Below the pieces are notes generated by a model, which saw nothing but the letters and a program-made list of their open reading frames with translations, was not told the DNA's origin and did not search any database. From a virus (taxonomy: Duplodnaviria > Caudoviricetes), in the IMG/VR virus record IMGVR_UViG_2885028616_000003, positions 32,001 to 96,000 of that record: a stretch of 64,000 nt of DNA; one strand, written 5' to 3'. Within the stretch, counting starts at the first letter, position 1; every line of letters starts with the position of its first letter. A program made the translations under genes and the position numbers. This document shows positions 38,127 through 62,308 of this stretch, one piece after another.

Positions 38127-38504
38127 TCAGTCCTGGTGGCCTCGTAGGTCCAGGATCACGTCCCAGCGAATGATGATCCGCGTGAGTTGAGTGACGACGA
38201 ACTCGACTTTCCACCACTCGAAGTCCTGCTCGACTTGGAAGAGGTAATCGGCTGCGGTCATCCAGTCGATCACCAGTCCCCGGACGTGTTCGCGGTGCTT
38301 GGTGTCCATGGGGATGTCGTTGAGGAGTGCGAGTGCCCTGGTGAGGGTTCCTTCGAGATCGGCGCTGAGGTAGGGGTCCACCGTCGCGGGGATCTCGATG
38401 GGGATCGGGAGGCCTTGCAGGGCCTTGATCACGAACCCGAAGGCTGTGACCAGTTTGAGGGTGACCTCTGCGAGCAGGTCGTCCCGGTCGTCGCGGTAGT
38501 CCAT
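38127..38504 (-). CDS. Hypothetical protein
   Basis: 125 aa, GGAGG RBS. Confidence 0.75.
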   Translation of the reverse strand: MDYRDDRDDLLAEVTLKLVTAFGFVIKALQGLPIPIEIPATVDPYLSADLEGTLTRALALLNDIPMDTKHREHVRGLVIDWMTAADYLFQVEQDFEWWKVEFVVTQLTRIIIRWDVILDLRGHQD

Positions 38505-38762
38505 CGGACTTCCTCCACTGTTGAGTTTTCAATCTGCGGGTGCCGGTCCGGGGGTCTCACTCCCCGTCCCGACACCACTAACTATACCATGTTTCTGTAC
38601 CTAGCGGGAATGGTCCGGCAGCGAAATCGCGGCCGCTTTGGTGGCCCTATCCGTTTCCGCGAGTACAGATTCATGGTATAGTTAGTGATGTCAGGGCGAG
38701 GGAGTGAGACCCCGAACCCCGGCGAACGCAGATTGACAACTCAACAGTGGAGGAATCCATGG
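38501..38762. repeat. ~110-bp imperfect inverted repeat: duplicated promoter and 5'UTR driving divergent genes
   Basis: Both arms read CATGGTATAGTTAGTG-TGTC...GGGAGTGAGACCCC...CGCAGATTGA(A/C)AACTCAACAGTGGAGGAA, then ATG. Confidence 0.9.
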
Positions 38763-39283
38763 GGAAGCGAACGTCCACCCACGAGGTATCCCTCGCGGTC
38801 CGGCTCGTCGGCTGGCACGAGGCGACCACCGAACGCACCGACTCGGCGGTACAGGTCCTGATCCCCGGAGCGGCCATCACCCTCTCCGACCGGCGCGCCG
38901 TCAGCGCCGTGTTCAGGGCGTGGATCGAAGCCCGGCTCGTCGGCCGGAAGGTGTTCAACGACCAAGGCGCCCGGTCCTACCTCGCGGTCCGGCCGCAGAT
39001 CACCGCGGCGGTCCACTTCCAGGACTGGCCGTACGAGTTCCAACCGGTGATCACCGGCAAGGGGCCGCTTTACAGCCCGAGCGGGTGCGGCCAGGTCATC
39101 GTCCAGATGCGCCAGTTCACGGTCGTCTGCGACGACCGGGCCGCCTGGGAGGTCCAGTACCAGGTGTGGCGACACGCCTACGAACTGGCCGCCGACCTCT
39201 GGGAGCTCTACCCGGTCCACATCTACGAACCGATGATCGCCGAACGGATCGCCGACCGGCTGTTCGGGGACGGCCCGGGATGA
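38759..39283 (+). CDS. Hypothetical protein
   Basis: GGAGG RBS and ATG at 38759. Confidence 0.75.
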   Translation: MGKRTSTHEVSLAVRLVGWHEATTERTDSAVQVLIPGAAITLSDRRAVSAVFRAWIEARLVGRKVFNDQGARSYLAVRPQITAAVHFQDWPYEFQPVITGKGPLYSPSGCGQVIVQMRQFTVVCDDRAAWEVQYQVWRHAYELAADLWELYPVHIYEPMIAERIADRLFGDGPG

Positions 39284-56880: not shown

Positions 56881-57109
56881 GGTGCAGTTGTTTGAAGAGG
56901 TGCAGTTGATCTCTTAGGTGCTTGTAAACGTCTGGGGGGGTACGGGGCCCACCCCCTTTAGGACCTAAGGGGGTACACAGCCCACCCCCTTTGAAGCGGT
57001 TAGGGGGTACAGGGCCCACCCCCTTAGTCCAAAGGGGGTATGGAGCCCACCCCCTTTGGACTGGCGGGCGCCCGGTTGTCCACAGGCCCGAGACGCCGGG
57101 TTGTCCACA
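56881..57109. other. Putative phage replication origin: four palindromic iterons, two DnaA boxes and an AT-richer strip
   Basis: GGGGGTA-N4-GCCCACCCCCTT four times at 56935-57057 with ~31-34-bp spacing. TTGTCCACA at 57076 and 57101. GGTGCAGTTG repeats at 56881 and 56899. Confidence 0.8.
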
Positions 57110-57113
57110 GGGA

Positions 57114-57488
57114 TCACGCGACCTCCTCGGCTGCCACGATCCGCGCGAACGCGGGCAGTTCGGGCAGCCGGAAGTCCATCGCGTGCCCCTTGGCCGCGTA
57201 CACCGGATCGCCGTTCTTGTCCCGCTTCCACACCACGCGGACATCCAGCCCGCGCTCGGCGAGCCGCTGGAGGATCTTCTTGAGCCCCTGCGGGGACACC
57301 TTCGCTACCTGGCACAGCCGGTCGTACAAGTCGCAGTCGTCGTTCTTGAAACGGCGCATGTCCCGGGCCCGCTCGTCCAGGACACGGTCCGCGATCGTCA
57401 GGAGCACGGCGAACTCCTTGTCCGACAGCTCCGCGCCCGCAGGCGTACGACGCCACTCGATGACGTCGCCCACGAGCTTCCCGCTCAA
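57114..57488 (-). CDS. Replication initiator-like winged-helix protein
   Basis: 'LSDKEFAVLLTIAD...VSPQGLKKILQRLAERGL'. Adjacent to the iterons. Confidence 0.7.
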   Translation of the reverse strand: MSGKLVGDVIEWRRTPAGAELSDKEFAVLLTIADRVLDERARDMRRFKNDDCDLYDRLCQVAKVSPQGLKKILQRLAERGLDVRVVWKRDKNGDPVYAAKGHAMDFRLPELPAFARIVAAEEVA

Positions 57489-57686
57489 TCCGCAGCCCTC
57501 CCACCTCTCTCAGCGCCTGGCTAGCCGTCATATGAGGGCTGGACCTCCTGTCGCTACGACCTGCTGAGAGTCACGTTGCGTAGATTGAACATGACCAACT
57601 GTAGCGATCTCGGAGCATGATGTCAGGTCATGGCGTATGGTCATTCGGTGATGCTGTGATCGACGCCCCCGAAGCGAGGACATGCC

Positions 57687-57956
57687 GTGACTGCACTCCC
57701 TCTCCGTGCGAGCATGGCCACCGTGAGTGAGGGAGAGGACTCCGTGGAGACCAGGCTGAAGAAGGCCGTGCGCGGGTACCGGCGCGCCACCCAGGCGCGG
57801 ATCGAGCTGCACGAAGCCATCAAGGCCGCCGCCGCCGGCGGCAAGACGCCGAAGCAGATCACGTTCCTGATCGACCACGAGTACGACGTCGCGCACGTCT
57901 CGCGGATCATCCACGGCAAGGTCGGCGGCAAGCGGAAGCCCCCCGCCAAGGACTGA
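57687..57956 (+). CDS. Small basic HTH-like regulator, divergent from the rep-like gene
   Basis: 'LHEAIKAAAAGGKTPKQIT...YDVAHVSRII'. Confidence 0.7.
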   Translation: MTALPLRASMATVSEGEDSVETRLKKAVRGYRRATQARIELHEAIKAAAAGGKTPKQITFLIDHEYDVAHVSRIIHGKVGGKRKPPAKD

Positions 57957-58034
57957 CCTGCTCGCGCGCCCTCCAGCGCGGCTCGTGCTGTCCGTCTCCC
58001 CCATCGATCCCCCGATCGTCGTTTTTCCTCATGT

Positions 58035-59050
58035 GGTCTGGTCTGTCGGCTAGGCCGGGGACGGTCAGCGGCGACCAGGCCTGGCTAGTCGTTCCGGCGC
58101 GGTCCGGCTTGCTGCGGTCCGGCTTGTCGTTCTGGCGAGGCCCGTGCAGGGCGCGGCTAGTCGGTTCAGGGGCGGGCACGAGACGGGATGGGTAGTCGGG
58201 ATGGCAGGGCGAGGCTGGTTCTGGCAAGGCAAGTCGTTGCGGCATGGCGAGGACGGGCAGGGCCAGACAAGGCATGTCGGTGTGGCGAGGTGCGGCTGGG
58301 GTCGACGTGAGCTGTCGATCTGGTATGGCATGGCGAGGGCAGGCGAGGATCGGCAAGGCATGGCCTGGGTTGGCGAGTCGGCATGGGATGGCGAGGCCGG
58401 ATTAGGTACGTCGACGCGGTCTGGCGAGGCCGGGCTAGGCCTGTCGGCAGCGGGCAGACGGGGAAAGCAGGAGAAGGGACATGTCGGACTGAAAGGACCA
58501 GGCATGGCGAGTCGGCAAGGGCAGGCTTGGTCGAGACTTGGCGAGAAATGGCGAGTCGTGGCTATGTGGCGAGGACGGGCGGGGCCAGGCAAGGCAAGTC
58601 GGCGCGGCGAGCAGGGGCGGGGCCTGACTTGTCGAACGGGCACGGCGAGGTAAGGCGTGAGTTGGCAAGTCGAAGCGGCCTGGCATAGCTCGACATGTCG
58701 CTGAGGCCGGGCGGGTGCGAGGCATGGCACGTCGGATGGGCACGGCATGGCACGGTCTGGCATGGCCCGTTCGGGGCCGGGCGAGAAGGGGCATGTCGGT
58801 GTGGCACGGCCCGGGTCGGCGGGGACAGGCGCCGGCGGGACGCGGCAAGGCTTGTCGCCGGAGGCGAGGGCGGGACGCGATGGGGGCGGGTGCACGTCAT
58901 GACAAGTCGGCATGGCGAGGCGAGGGTTAGGCACGGACCGGCGAGGCGCGTCGGGCACGGTGCGGCGGGGTCCAAGCGTGGCGCGATTGGGGCTGTCGGC
59001 ACGGCCGGGTCTGACCAGGGCGGGCGGGACTGGGCCTGTCGTGTTGGCTA
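58035..59050 (+). repeat. Non-coding array of 24 units GTCG-N4-(GGYNN)n, candidate guide-RNA array
   Basis: 25 GTCG delimiters from 58045 to 59038, with a 5-nt GGY period inside units. 14 of 24 units are exactly 8+5n nt long. Confidence 0.9.
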
Positions 59051-59114
59051 GCCGCATCGTGGTTCGCGGCGTCGCGGGTAGGCCGCCCGGACTGTGCCGG
59101 GCGGCCCGGTCACG

Positions 59115-59831
59115 CTACTGCTTGTCGAACGCGAGGAGCTCGAACTTGCCGTCCGAGCGGCCCCGGTCCGCGCCGATCCCGATGTCCTCGCCGCGCTCCC
59201 AAATCCGGCCCCAGGCCTCCATCGGCAGGAAGTCGTCGTGGACCCGGACCGTGAACTCCAGAAGCGGCTGCTCCACGTACTCGACCCGGTTGATCGAGGA
59301 ACGCGGCCCCTGCGGGGTCTTCACGTGCTTGATGCGCTCCTCGACCCCGTGCGGCTCCGTCACCCCGAGGTCGATGTACACCTCGGGGACGAACACCCTT
59401 TCGGCGAGGGTGGACATCAGCCCCTTCCGGAACCCCTTGGTGATCTTCGACTTGCCGGGGAAGTCCGTGCCCGGGTAGGCGGAGTTGGCCCACTCCTTCA
59501 GCGCGGCCTTCATGCACCGCCCCTCGTACCCCAGCGCCCCCGTGCCGGGGATGCGCTTGAAGCCGTTGACCGACACTTCCGCGTCCCCCGACTCCATCAC
59601 CGCCTGCGCCAGCTCGTCCGCCGACGGCTGCCGGTCGGGGAACCGCTCCTTCAGCGTCGCGTCCGCCAGCTCCTGCAGGTCCCGGTCCCCCAGCTCCAGG
59701 CGGGTCTTCAGCCAGCCCTTGATCACGCTCGGGGACGAGGGGACCCCACCGACCAGCTTGTCGAGAACCTGCAGCCGCACCACGTACACCGCGACGTCCG
59801 ACTTGGTCCCGAACACGTCCGTAGCACTCAT
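59115..59831 (-). CDS. Solo Cas7/RAMP-like protein
   Basis: N-terminal strand then 'LVGGVP', 'YEGRCMKAALKE' helix, thumb-like hairpin 'ERIKHV...RSSINRVEYV', C-terminal G-rich loop 'GIGADRGRSDGKF'. Confidence 0.8.
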   Translation of the reverse strand: MSATDVFGTKSDVAVYVVRLQVLDKLVGGVPSSPSVIKGWLKTRLELGDRDLQELADATLKERFPDRQPSADELAQAVMESGDAEVSVNGFKRIPGTGALGYEGRCMKAALKEWANSAYPGTDFPGKSKITKGFRKGLMSTLAERVFVPEVYIDLGVTEPHGVEERIKHVKTPQGPRSSINRVEYVEQPLLEFTVRVHDDFLPMEAWGRIWERGEDIGIGADRGRSDGKFELLAFDKQ

Positions 59832-60244
59832 CGTCCCGTCCCCTCCGAATGGACCGCCATCGCCGGCGCGGCGATCGCGTTCTGCGTCTTCACGCGCTCG
59901 GCTTCGAGTGCGCGCTTCAGAGACCCGTTCACGGTCTCCAAGTCCTTGATCTCGTTGCGGGCCGCCTCCAGGTCCGCCTCCACCGCAGAGCGGCCCTCGA
60001 CCTCGCGGCGGACCTCGTCGAGCACGACGCCGGCGCGGCCGTAGGCGGCGAACGTGGCCTTCACCTCGGTCGCCTTCTGCACCGTCAGGTACAGGTCGAA
60101 CACCTCGCGCGGGGTCTTGCCGCGCAGGCTCTTGCCGGTGATCGCCTCGATGTTCCGGCGCGCTTTCTCGTCGGTCTTCAGCAGCTCCACCACGGCGTCG
60201 AACTCCTCCGCCGAGTACTCCTGCGCCCTGCGTCGTCTCGCCAT
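59828..60244 (-). CDS. Helical/coiled-coil protein translationally coupled to the Cas7-like gene
   Basis: AGGAG RBS and ATGA overlap at 59828-59831. Confidence 0.75.
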   Translation of the reverse strand: MARRRRAQEYSAEEFDAVVELLKTDEKARRNIEAITGKSLRGKTPREVFDLYLTVQKATEVKATFAAYGRAGVVLDEVRREVEGRSAVEADLEAARNEIKDLETVNGSLKRALEAERVKTQNAIAAPAMAVHSEGTGR

Positions 60245-60292: not shown

Positions 60293-60652
60293 TCACCCCG
60301 GCGCGGCCTGGTCCAGGTGCGCCCACTGAGGGCCGGTCGGGCACTCGATGTGCCGCGCGGCGCACCAGTGCAGCCCGGCGACGGTGACGCCGCCCTCCAC
60401 GTACGCCAGCGCCGCCAACCCGCGGACCAGAGCGGCGAACGCCGCAGCCGGGCGGCCGTCCTTCGCCCCGTACAGCAGCACGTCACCGGCCGCCCCGGCG
60501 CGCATCAGCTCCACCACCCACGCGGCGTCGTTCGCGCGCTGCTCGGGGGTCCAGCCGCGGATCTCCTGCATGCGCTGCGGCACCGCCACCAGCAGGCCAG
60601 CGGCGAGGTTCTCGTCCAGGCCCTCGTGCCGGGCGCGCTCGTCCTGCATCAC
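60293..60652 (-). CDS. Hypothetical protein
   Basis: 'GDVLLYG...LAALAYVEGGVT..GLHWC'. Confidence 0.7.
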   Translation of the reverse strand: MMQDERARHEGLDENLAAGLLVAVPQRMQEIRGWTPEQRANDAAWVVELMRAGAAGDVLLYGAKDGRPAAAFAALVRGLAALAYVEGGVTVAGLHWCAARHIECPTGPQWAHLDQAAPG

Positions 60653-61401
60653 AGCCCCCGTTCCGCGCGGTACTGCGCCGCGAGCCGCTGCACCGTCCGG
60701 TAGCTGAGCCCCATACGCGCGGCAATCTCCTTCTGCACCAAGCCCTGCTCGTGCAGCTCGGTGAACCGGTCGAGCCGCCTCTTGGCCACATGCGCGGGCG
60801 TCTTCTGCGTACCGGCGTTGGCACGGAGTTCGATCCGCCACAACCAGGACGGCTCCTCGCCCTCGTGCCACAGAGCCAGGAAACGACGGCGGGCGGCGGT
60901 GAGCCGCTGCGCGAATGCGCTGTAGCTGATGCCAAGGGCATCGGCGGCGGCCTGGTGGGTGCCACGCGCAGCGAGAGCGTGCACGGCGGACCGCTCGACC
61001 GGGGTGAGCTGGGGCCAGATCTGCCACAGGGCCGCCTGGTCGACGATGCGGGCCTCGGGGCTGGGGGTGTGACGGATGACCGTTTCCCAGTAGATGGCGT
61101 ACTTGGGCATCGGCCGGTAGTCCTTGGCGGTGCCGTGGTGGTGGAGCTCCTTCTGCAGGTTCCGGGCGATGGCGTTCTGCGCGGTGATGATCAGTTCGTT
61201 GGGGGTGGGGCGCTCGTCGGCGCTGTAGAGGTGTTCGGCGATCGCTGACCAGGCGATGGCGTAGCGGTCGCGGGGATCGGTGGTGATGCCGTAGAGACGC
61301 CGGGTGGAGAACGATGCGAGGCGTTCGAGGTCGGCGAGGTTGTAGCCGTGCCGCAACTCGTGGACGTCGCTGGAGGGTGGAGAGCAGGCGAGCTGGGTCA
61401 T
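60649..61401 (-). CDS. Sigma-factor-like/HTH transcription regulator
   Basis: Region-4-like 'QLTPVERSAV...AADALGIS...RLTAARRRF' plus a second HTH 'QKEIAARMGLSYRTVQR'. Confidence 0.75.
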   Translation of the reverse strand: MTQLACSPPSSDVHELRHGYNLADLERLASFSTRRLYGITTDPRDRYAIAWSAIAEHLYSADERPTPNELIITAQNAIARNLQKELHHHGTAKDYRPMPKYAIYWETVIRHTPSPEARIVDQAALWQIWPQLTPVERSAVHALAARGTHQAAADALGISYSAFAQRLTAARRRFLALWHEGEEPSWLWRIELRANAGTQKTPAHVAKRRLDRFTELHEQGLVQKEIAARMGLSYRTVQRLAAQYRAERGL

Positions 61402-61808
61402 CCGGGCGTTCCTTCCGGGTGGGGCTGGCTGGTGCGGCGGTGTGCGGCGTCGCGGTCCTTCTGCTCCTGCACCGCCCGCTTCGCCGCCTCCTGCTCGCCG
61501 GGTGAGGCGCGGCGCTTACCGGACGCGACCGCGCGGGCGTCCACCGCCTGCCACGCCAGGCCGCCCTGCGCGGCGTAGGAGTCACGCCCGTAGGTCTCGA
61601 ACGCCGGGCACGACGGGCGCCCGCAGTAGCACCGCGCCGGCGCGCACCGCCCCTCCGGTGGCTCGGGCAGGCCTCGCTCGGCCGACGGAGTGTGGTCCAA
61701 GCAACGGGGGCCCTGGATGAACAGGCGAGTCGGCGTTGCCCCGCAGGTGCGCTGCTCGGCGTCGGAGTAGTGGACGCATGGTTTGTCCCACCTGCCGATA
61801 CCGCTCAT
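61398..61808 (-). CDS. Cys-rich hypothetical protein
   Basis: 'CGATPTRLFIQGPRCLDHTP', 'AVASGKRRAS'. Confidence 0.7.
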   Translation of the reverse strand: MSGIGRWDKPCVHYSDAEQRTCGATPTRLFIQGPRCLDHTPSAERGLPEPPEGRCAPARCYCGRPSCPAFETYGRDSYAAQGGLAWQAVDARAVASGKRRASPGEQEAAKRAVQEQKDRDAAHRRTSQPHPEGTPG

Positions 61809-62308
61809 CGGCGCCTCGCAGCGCTGGGGGTGCCGCCAGCCTCGACGAGCACGGTCACCGACGCCGAGATCTCCTCGACCGTGAGCAGCAGCCCGAGAGC
61901 GTCCGCATAGCCGTGGGCCTGGTCGAGCTGGATGCGGCGCTCCCCGTTCTCCCACATCGTCACGGCCGGGCGCGTCACCCCCACCGCTGCCGCGACCTGC
62001 GCGACCGGGAGCTCGCGGACGAGGCGGGTCGCGCGGAGCTGCCGCAGCACCGGCAGCCGCCTGTCGTCCTGGGCGCAGGCGGCGAGCGGCACCGGCACCC
62101 CGCTAGCGCCCGGCAGCAGCGCCAGCTCCAGCCCGAGCACCCCGGCGTAGCCGCAGGCACGTTCCAGCGACGGGCACCGGTCTCCTCGCTCCCAAGACGC
62201 CGGCACGCAAGCGGACAACCCGGCGCGTGCGGCGGCGGCGCGCACGCTCAGCCCGAGTGCGCGGCGACGTGCTCGCAGCGCCCGCACGATCGGCAGCGGC
62301 TCACCCAC
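61805..62308 (-). CDS. Tandem XRE HTH protein
   Basis: Two HTH_3-like repeats, each ending 'YAxxLGL'. Confidence 0.8.
   Translation of the reverse strand: MGEPLPIVRALRARRRALGLSVRAAAARAGLSACVPASWERGDRCPSLERACGYAGVLGLELALLPGASGVPVPLAACAQDDRRLPVLRQLRATRLVRELPVAQVAAAVGVTRPAVTMWENGERRIQLDQAHGYADALGLLLTVEEISASVTVLVEAGGTPSAARRR

What the first reader, a model, noticed from the sequence alone, without database searches (positions are those of the whole stretch)
58045..59041. Array grammar: GTCG delimiters cut the tract into 24 distinct units of quantised length
Seen: GTCG begins at 58045, 58088, 58126, 58160, 58195, 58233, 58276, 58314, 58377, 58410, 58443, 58483, 58511, 58555, 58598, 58631, 58669, 58697, 58731, 58795, 58854, 58906, 58950, 58995 and 59038. 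Spacings are 28-64 nt, and 14 of 24 are 8+5n (28/33/38/43/63). Example: GTCG ttgc GGCat GGCga GGAcg GGCag GGCca GACaa GGCat GTCG. No two units are identical, so this is not a simple slippage microsatellite: phase is conserved while NN varies. Inference: GTCG-N4 is a processing or handle site yielding about 24 separate small RNAs, and the off-phase units (e.g. 58443-58483, 58854-58906) may be decaying.
Basis: partly seen in the sequence, partly recalled or inferred. Interest (0 to 1): 0.85.

Follow-up and report, generated by a model that had tools for sequence, protein, structure and literature searches.

The report
Prophage VIPR guide-RNA array
The GTCG-punctuated five-base-repeat tract is the guide-RNA array of a VIPR system, a CRISPR-related, phage-borne RNA-guided DNA silencer first described in 2026 preprints; it is a real further example of a known kind, with an unusually compact, tail-less array layout.

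Summary
All 25 GTCG positions are correct, although 3 further GTCGs inside the tract were not listed. The tract is strongly strand-asymmetric: GTCG 28 against CGAC 4, and G 467 against C 238. It has a strong 5-nt GG periodicity and no 3-nt periodicity. It is the strongest GG lag-5 signal in the whole 9.5 Mb genome.

The adjacent minus-strand gene (59115-59831) folds as a Cas7/Csm3-like RAMP. By profile-profile comparison it is homologous to the experimentally characterised Vipr of Escherichia phage phiSUSP1 (93.5%, E 2e-7). A small helical partner gene (59828-60244) precedes it.

All 29 related loci examined carry the same array directly after the gene: 11 genomes, 16 IMG/VR viral contigs, Microcystis phage Mae-JY09 and an Actinomadura contig.

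This is therefore a VIPR locus (bioRxiv 10.64898/2026.04.26.720920): Vipr, a vap-like gene and GGY/NN pentamer vrRNAs. The scan has met VIPR on other DNA before (118 notes in at least 103 genomes).

Three features differ from the characterised type II locus:
- Units are short (GTC plus 5-8 pentamers), contiguous and without tails.
- There is one conserved hairpin, at the array's 3' end.
- The array is antisense to vipr.

Processing at GTCG and the targets remain untested; my target searches found nothing convincing. The 330-aa ORF is not coding.

The parts
58045..59041 (+). vrRNA-like array: about 24 contiguous units, each GTC + 5-12 (mostly 5-8) GGYNN pentamers; the G-rich strand is the presumed RNA strand
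   Evidence: positions, periodicity, position-specific composition. (same array next to the homologous gene in all 29 related loci). (top GG lag-5 signal of the whole genome).
59046..59076 (+). Conserved element at the 3' end of the array: GGCTAGCC, then a 5-bp hairpin (59051-59055 pairs with 59066-59070), then GTCGC. It occurs once per array and is a candidate tail.
   Evidence: The stem is paired in 100% of 19 loci; four pairs are invariant and one covaries (U:A 14, C:G 4).
59081..59106 (.). GC-rich inverted repeat (10-bp stem, 6-nt loop) between the convergent array and the vipr gene; a terminator-like hairpin without a T-run
   Evidence: Read directly. Comparable hairpins sit at the same place in L002, L004, L008 and L040.
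59115..59831 (-). vipr homologue (P0001, 238 aa): a lone Cas7/Csm3-like RAMP
   Evidence: AlphaFold2 model, pLDDT 86. Foldseek PDB top hits are all Csm3, Cmr4, type VII Cas7 or Cas7-11, E about 1e-6. BFVD returns viral RAMP-like proteins, best E 4.5e-13. hhalign against the phiSUSP1 Vipr family gives 93.5%, E 2.3e-7. No Pfam or PHROG hit.
59828..60244 (-). vap-like accessory gene (P0002, 138 aa): a short N-terminal helical bundle followed by a long helix. Its stop overlaps the vipr start (ATGA).
   Evidence: Conserved directly upstream of vipr in at least 9 related loci. Model pLDDT 74. No fold match, no Pfam hit and no similarity to phiSUSP1 vap1.
57714..57956 (+). Small HTH-like gene (P0003) upstream of the array and co-oriented with its G-rich strand. 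It is present in only some related loci, so its membership of the system is uncertain.
   Evidence: Homologous small genes are visible in L004, L012 and L040. A weak terminator-like hairpin at 58005-58018 lies between it and the array.
58065..59057 (-). 330-aa ORF overlapping the array: an artefact of composition, not a gene
   Evidence: GC by codon position is 0.69/0.70/0.71, against 0.67/0.42/0.96 for vipr. No period-3 signal. No Pfam or PHROG hit. The translation is 22% proline.

Best explanation
The tract is the guide-RNA (vrRNA) array of a VIPR system carried by a prophage of a Streptosporangiales-type actinomycete.

Inferred mechanism, by homology to the published system:
- The G-rich (+) strand is transcribed.
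- Protomers of the Vipr protein (59115-59831) bind one GGYNN pentamer each. They sequester GGY and present the NN dinucleotides.
- The NN dinucleotides pair with double-stranded DNA, skipping every third target base.
- The bound filament silences genes of competing phages or other mobile elements.
- The small helical protein encoded at 59828-60244 is the accessory (vap-like) partner.

Shown here: the array grammar, its strict association with the gene across 29 loci, the RAMP fold, and the homology to a characterised Vipr.

Inferred only: transcription and its strand, cutting at or near each W-W/GTC junction into about 24 short guides, target pairing, and the biological targets.
For: - Grammar and statistics.
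- The array is unique in the genome and is its strongest GG lag-5 signal; vipr is single-copy.
- Fold: Csm3, Cmr4, Cas7 and Cas7-11, probability 1.00, TM 0.45-0.54; viral RAMP-like proteins.
- Homology to the phiSUSP1 Vipr family (gene KT454805 28474-29061) covers the G-loop; R223 aligns with SUSP1 R179 and R182 with the thumb residue R138: read against the structure preprint.
- Every related locus carries a GTCG-punctuated, pentamer-periodic, C-rich tract right after the vipr stop: 11 of 11 genome loci, 16 of 16 IMG/VR viral loci, Mae-JY09 and an Actinomadura contig. This holds down to 34-37% protein identity and at 60-63% GC.
- The array evolves much faster than the genes. Against L040, vap + vipr are 92.8% identical in DNA. 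Only about 200 nt at the 5' end (75%) and about 100 nt at the 3' end (80%) of the array align.
- The setting is a prophage: late genes at 5-35 kb, early genes at 40-64 kb, neighbours are HTH regulators and no cas genes.
- The published definition of VIPR matches: Vipr RAMP + vap + at least 4 YNNGG repeats, mostly proviral (bioRxiv 10.64898/2026.04.26.720920).
Against: - There are no RNA data, so transcription, strand and processing are not shown.
- Units (mostly 5-8 pentamers) are shorter than the 9-16 repeats of characterised vrRNAs, and they lack the per-vrRNA 3' tail.
- The array is antisense to vipr, whereas in phiSUSP1 the vrRNAs are co-directional with it.
- In 16 homologous unit pairs from related loci, GTC and the first G never changed (0/48 and 0/97). 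The second G and the Y changed as often (14%) as the NN positions (9-10%). At short distances NN is therefore not visibly more variable than positions 2-3; the sample is small.
- P0002 shows no similarity to phiSUSP1 vap1.
Confidence: 0.85

Rival explanations
1. The array is a scaffold or sponge RNA for the RAMP protein rather than a set of guides. Only the GG phase matters and the NN letters carry no target information.
For: - Positions 2-5 of the pentamer vary about equally between close relatives.
- A perfect (GGCTT)x10 run in L007 shows that pentamers arise by slippage.
- No convincing targets were found under the 1-nt skip rule.
Against: - The protein is homologous to a Vipr whose NN positions were shown experimentally to program DNA binding.
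- No two units are alike, and array interiors are replaced between phages whose genes are 93% identical. That pattern fits diversifying guides.
- My target databases were small, or required exact matches.
Confidence: 0.08
2. The tract acts as DNA, not RNA. It would be a G-skewed, R-loop-prone or protein-binding region (origin, centromere or packaging site) next to the putative replication module at about 56.9-57.5 kb.
For: - GC skew is extreme at 0.31.
- It lies beside a wHTH gene with iteron-like repeats, which another first-stage note reported and I did not test.
- In the Mae-JY09 record the array lies at the right end of the linear sequence.
Against: - The constant partner is the RAMP gene, not any replication or packaging gene; the other neighbours differ between loci.
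- A 5-bp period puts successive sites on opposite faces of duplex DNA.
- The published family binds RNA of exactly this repeat.
Confidence: 0.04
3. The 330-aa minus-strand ORF (58065-59057) encodes a proline-rich protein, and the periodicity reflects a peptide repeat.
For: It is an open frame of 330 codons.
Against: - GC by codon position is flat (0.69/0.70/0.71), against 0.67/0.42/0.96 in neighbouring genes.
- There is no period-3 signal, and a 5-nt period cannot keep a reading frame.
- No family matches.
- Related arrays differ in length and sequence.
Confidence: 0.01

Closest known systems
VIPR systems (Viral Interference Programmable Repeat): Vipr + vap + vrRNA. bioRxiv 10.64898/2026.04.26.720920; structure in 10.64898/2026.04.26.720927; biology in 10.64898/2026.10.15.759431. 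The characterised example is the type II locus of Escherichia phage phiSUSP1 (KT454805, about 27.6-29.2 kb).
   Same: - A lone small RAMP protein, homologous by profile comparison.
- A two-gene operon with a small partner gene.
- GGY/NN pentamer repeats in the flanking non-coding DNA.
- A proviral setting, with no CRISPR array and no cas genes.
   Different: - Here about 24 contiguous units of GTC + 5-8 pentamers carry no tails between them, and one 5-bp hairpin element closes the array. In phiSUSP1 four separate vrRNAs of about 100 nt have 12-14 pentamers each, with their own leader and a tail of about 45 nt.
- The array is antisense (convergent) to vipr; in phiSUSP1 it is co-directional.
- The gene order is vap-like then vipr; in phiSUSP1 the 195-aa Vipr comes first.
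- The vap-like protein is unrelated to phiSUSP1 vap1.
- The preprint mentions 'staggered arrays with overlapping vrRNAs' (its fig. S18), and the passage that names the sRNA-seq-confirmed array kinds does not include them. This locus may be of that kind. The figure and tables are not held, so I could not check.
Type III CRISPR-Cas backbone subunits (Csm3/Cmr4, Cas7)
   Same: The predicted fold matches: RRM core, G-loop and thumb.
   Different: About 10-12% sequence identity. There are no other cas genes and no repeat-spacer array. The RNA period is 5 nt rather than 6 nt.
Non-canonical VIPR arrays recovered by periodic token entropy (bioRxiv 10.64898/2026.10.21.760802)
   Same: A 5-nt period next to a Vipr-like fold; degenerate pentamer variants such as GAC/NN are also seen here in the lower-GC locus L026.
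   Different: That text describes repeats of about 10 units and does not mention a GTC punctuation.

Membership tests
VIPR system | Vipr protein: a small stand-alone RAMP (RRM core, G-loop, thumb) related to the published Viprs | tested here: met
   Foldseek returns Csm3, Cas7 and Cas7-11 and viral RAMP-like proteins. hhalign of the P0001 family against the phiSUSP1 Vipr family gives 93.5%, E 2.3e-7 over 135 columns including the G-loop. A single-sequence comparison was negative.
VIPR system | Tandem YNNGG (GGY/NN) pentamer repeats, at least 4 units, in non-coding DNA flanking vipr | tested here: met
   G 74-83% at position 1, G 55-71% at position 2, C or G at position 3, near-uniform at positions 4-5. 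The same holds in all 29 related loci.
VIPR system | Minimal locus: vipr plus one accessory (vap) gene, with no CRISPR array and no other cas genes | tested here: met
   P0002 is conserved upstream of vipr and overlaps its start. There are no long repeats. Neighbours are HTH or unknown proteins. P0002 could not be assigned to any of the six published vap families.
VIPR system | Viral or proviral context | tested here: met
   The window has a prophage gene layout. There are 16 IMG/VR viral contigs and one isolated phage.
VIPR system | Each vrRNA ends in a conserved structured 3' tail | tested here: not met
   Only GTC separates the units. A single conserved hairpin element follows the last unit. 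The preprint allows other array architectures, so this argues against type II and not against VIPR.
VIPR system | vrRNAs are expressed and co-purify with Vipr | not testable with these tools
   No RNA or protein data are available.
VIPR system | NN dinucleotides match natural targets under the 1-nt skip rule | tested here: inconclusive
   Searches gave no match above controls. The units are short, the databases were small, or exact matching was required.
VIPR with hammerhead-interspersed array | Hammerhead ribozymes between vrRNAs | tested here: not met
   An Rfam scan of 57000-60000 at E <= 1 found no ribozyme. The units are contiguous.
CRISPR-Cas | Identical direct repeats of 23-50 nt alternating with unique spacers, together with cas1/cas2 or effector cas genes | tested here: not met
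   Tandem Repeats Finder gives only short, low-scoring rows. The only fixed element is GTC(G). No cas Pfam families occur nearby.

The most novel reading that the evidence does not exclude
This Streptosporangiales and cyanophage clade would represent a distinct VIPR array architecture. It would be one convergent transcript in which a 3-nt GTC phase shift, with the W-W before it, marks the guide boundaries in place of per-guide tails. That would yield about 24 very short guides of 5-8 pentamers, roughly one turn of the six-subunit Vipr helix. A single terminal hairpin would serve as the only tail or nucleation site. If it corresponds to the preprint's 'staggered arrays', it would supply the sequence rule for boundaries that the passage listing the sRNA-seq-confirmed array kinds does not cover.
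Probability: 0.3. Interest if true: 0.5.

Novelty: new member of a known kind. Interest (0 to 1): 0.3.

Why it matters
The finding adds a well-populated actinomycete-prophage clade to a class of RNA-guided DNA silencers that is only months old. That clade also includes one isolated phage annotated as infecting Microcystis.

It shows that the class can pack two dozen guides into 1 kb without tails or ribozymes. How such arrays are cut, and how short a working guide can be, are open questions. Both become directly testable with this locus, by small-RNA end mapping at the GTC junctions.

For genome annotation, the 330-aa ORF over the array should not be called as a gene.

Tried and rejected
- DNA similarity of 57600-59500 to 50,697 phage records: no match.
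- Rfam scan: nothing relevant.
- Pfam and PHROGs on P0001, P0002, P0003 and the 330-aa ORF: no significant hits.
- A second candidate period-5 region at about 432 kb of the genome is a different, GTCGG-rich sequence with no Vipr gene nearby, so it is not an array of this kind.
- Direct search of the phiSUSP1 record with the narrow P0001 profile, and single-sequence hhalign: negative. Only the broadened profiles of both families connect.
- Target prediction with the published 1-nt skip rule:
  - Own genome, skips 0-3: only self-hits at skip 3 and no clear skip-1 excess.
  - 163 decoded units from all arrays against all fetched loci plus the window: exact hits were 6 (skip 1), 5 (skip 2) and 1 (skip 0), all from 6-pentamer units, so at chance level.
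  - Exact 24-nt and 20-nt specified patterns of the two longest units in IMG/VR: 0 hits.
  - The 12-pentamer unit with up to 3 mismatches in 401 genomes of the same order: 0 hits.
  - Unit 58233 has five 14/16 matches in the own genome, against 1.0 +/- 1.1 for shuffled NN order (maximum 4), all with the skipped base at the wobble position. This is too weak to call a target.
- Sigma-70-type promoter scan around the array: none found.
- Fold search for P0002: no match.
- Supplementary tables of the VIPR preprint are not held, so the VIPR type could not be assigned.

Full report
**Observation**

The tract at 58045-59041 lies between a small + strand gene (57714-57956) and the stop of a minus-strand gene (59115). 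Three further GTCGs inside the tract (58301, 58530, 58815) were left out.

- The tract has 467 G against 238 C, and 28 GTCG against 4 CGAC. First-order Markov simulations of the same composition give 10.3 +/- 3.1 GTCG.
- GG autocorrelation is 0.335 at lag 5, against 0.000 +/- 0.035 simulated. It is 0.22 at lag 10 and then re-peaks at 28, 33, 38, 43 and 48. There is no period-3 signal.
- Fourteen of 24 spacings are 3 mod 5 (P = 4e-5). Pooled over related arrays the figure is 80 of 214 (P = 3e-9).
- Position-specific composition over 177 units from 13 loci shows the grammar is GTC followed by GGYNN pentamers. The G at position 4 is already the first G of a pentamer, and units end GGC-W-W.
- Parsed this way, most window units are in phase. 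The off-phase units differ by single-base indels.

**Not a gene**

The overlapping 330-aa ORF has flat GC over codon positions (0.69/0.70/0.71), whereas the neighbouring genes show 0.67/0.42/0.96. It has no family hit.

**Context**

The genome is a single 9.5 Mb contig of 72% GC. The closest relatives of the flanking protein are in Actinomadura, Nonomuraea, Streptosporangium and allied genera.

The window is a prophage. A GC3-based gene list puts structural-looking genes on the minus strand at 5-35 kb and small early genes at 40-64 kb. Neighbours of the tract are HTH regulators and unknown proteins, with no cas genes.

The tract is the strongest GG lag-5 signal in the whole genome. Both it and the flanking gene are single-copy.

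**The partner gene**

P0001 (59115-59831, minus strand, 238 aa) has no Pfam or PHROG match.

- Its AlphaFold2 model (pLDDT 86) matches Csm3, Cmr4, type VII Cas7 and Cas7-11 domains in the PDB (E about 1e-6, probability 1.00, TM 0.45-0.54).
- It also matches viral RAMP-like proteins in BFVD (best E 4.5e-13).
- Upstream, with an ATGA overlap, lies P0002 (138 aa, helical). It is conserved at that position in at least 9 related loci and has no recognisable fold or family.

**Comparative evidence**

I fetched 11 loci from reference genomes, 16 from IMG/VR viral contigs, Microcystis phage Mae-JY09 and the Actinomadura bangladeshensis contig that encodes a 95%-identical protein.

Every one has a C-rich tract beginning right after the stop of the P0001 homologue. 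On the opposite strand it reads as GTCG-punctuated GG-pentamers, 400 to over 1000 nt long. This holds down to 34-37% protein identity and in contigs of 60-63% GC.

The array sequence itself is not conserved. Against the Actinomadura locus, the vap-like and vipr genes are 92.8% identical in DNA. Only about 200 nt at the 5' end (75%) and about 100 nt at the 3' end (80%) of the array align.

All arrays of the high-GC clade end, on the vipr side, with one conserved element. It is GGCTAGCC overlapping a 5-bp hairpin GCCGY...RCGGC, followed by GTCGC. The stem is paired in all 19 aligned loci and one pair covaries, U:A 14 and C:G 4.

**Identification**

A literature search found bioRxiv 10.64898/2026.04.26.720920, which describes VIPR systems.

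- A VIPR system is a small, stand-alone, ancestral RAMP (Vipr), an accessory vap gene, and vrRNAs made of YNNGG (GGY/NN) pentamers.
- The NN letters pair with double-stranded DNA while every third target base is skipped.
- The systems are mostly proviral and silence competing mobile elements.
- Seven types and several array layouts are described. These include 'staggered arrays with overlapping vrRNAs', which are absent from the array kinds the text says were confirmed by sRNA-seq.

A structural preprint (10.64898/2026.04.26.720927) shows one protomer per pentamer, with G-loop and thumb contacts to GGY.

I tested homology directly. The phiSUSP1 record holds GGY pentamer runs at 27.6-28.0 kb and 29.17-29.23 kb, flanking two minus-strand genes. 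The narrow P0001 profile does not detect the phiSUSP1 protein. Broadened profiles of the two families do align, with 93.5% probability and E 2.3e-7 over 135 columns. The alignment covers the G-loop: P0001 G218, G220 and R223 align with SUSP1 G174, G176 and R179. It also covers the thumb arginine: R182 aligns with R138.

P0001 is therefore a distant Vipr homologue, and the locus meets the published definition.

**How this locus differs from the characterised type II example**

- In phiSUSP1 each vrRNA has its own leader, 12-14 pentamers and a structured tail of about 45 nt, and is co-directional with vipr.
- Here the units are contiguous. They are mostly 5-8 pentamers long (the modal unit in the clade is 33 nt, that is GTC + 6) and are separated only by GTC.
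- The G-rich strand is antisense to vipr in every locus, so the array and the operon converge on a GC-rich hairpin (59081-59106).
- Only one tail-like hairpin exists per array.
- No hammerhead ribozyme is present.

Whether this is the preprint's 'staggered' type cannot be decided, because its figures and tables are not held.

**What remains unshown**

There are no RNA data. No sigma-70-type promoter was found by the consensus scan.

Among 16 homologous unit pairs from related phages, GTC and the first G never changed. Positions 2-5 changed at similar rates of 9-14%. The expected contrast between conserved GGY and hypervariable NN is thus visible in composition but not in this small set of recent substitutions.

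Target prediction by the 1-nt skip rule gave nothing above controls. The searches covered the own genome, the pooled loci, IMG/VR (exact patterns) and 401 genomes of the same order. Short guides carry only 10-16 specified bases, so these searches had little power.

**Verdict**

It is unproven in its specifics: the GTCG-N4 handle and 24 processed RNAs.

The element is a new member of the VIPR class, which was published in 2026 and which this scan has already met in at least 103 other genomes. The compact, tail-less, convergent array layout is the only part that may go beyond what is in print.

Noticed in passing
L007:6850-6930 (G-rich strand): One unit of a Streptosporangium array contains a perfect run of ten GGCTT pentamers. 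This shows that new pentamers arise by slippage before they diverge.
   Followed up: no
L013:6750-7130 (Microcystis phage Mae-JY09, PP395641.1, about 38460-38850): The same CGAC-punctuated array follows the Vipr homologue (37% identity) in an isolated phage annotated as infecting Microcystis. It lies within about 500 nt of the right end of the linear record. The locus is high-GC for a Microcystis phage.
   Followed up: partly
window 57970-58164 and 59014-59114, compared with L040: Between two prophages whose vipr and vap genes are 93% identical, only the two ends of the array align and the interior units are replaced. This suggests cassette-like turnover of the interior, with constrained ends.
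   Followed up: partly
genome C1 about 432000-432900 (outside the window): This is the second-strongest CC lag-5 signal in the genome. It is a GTCGG/GGGCGG-rich stretch with no Vipr gene nearby, probably a different repeat or a coding low-complexity region.
   Followed up: partly
window 56881-57488: A wHTH gene (57114-57488, minus strand) lies just beyond the array. Another first-stage note reports iteron-like repeats and DnaA boxes there. I did not examine them.
   Followed up: no
genome C1 28092 and 9511240 (outside the window): An identical 24-mer, GCCAACGAGCGCAGCCAGAAGCTC, occurs near both chromosome ends. It matches decoded unit 58233 at 14 of 16 NN letters, with the skipped base at the wobble position. 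The excess over shuffled controls is weak.
   Followed up: partly
window 60649-61401 and 61805-62140 (minus strand): The early-region neighbours upstream of the vap-like gene are HTH proteins: an HTH_23/sigma-70 region 4-like C-terminus, and an HTH_3 domain.
   Followed up: no
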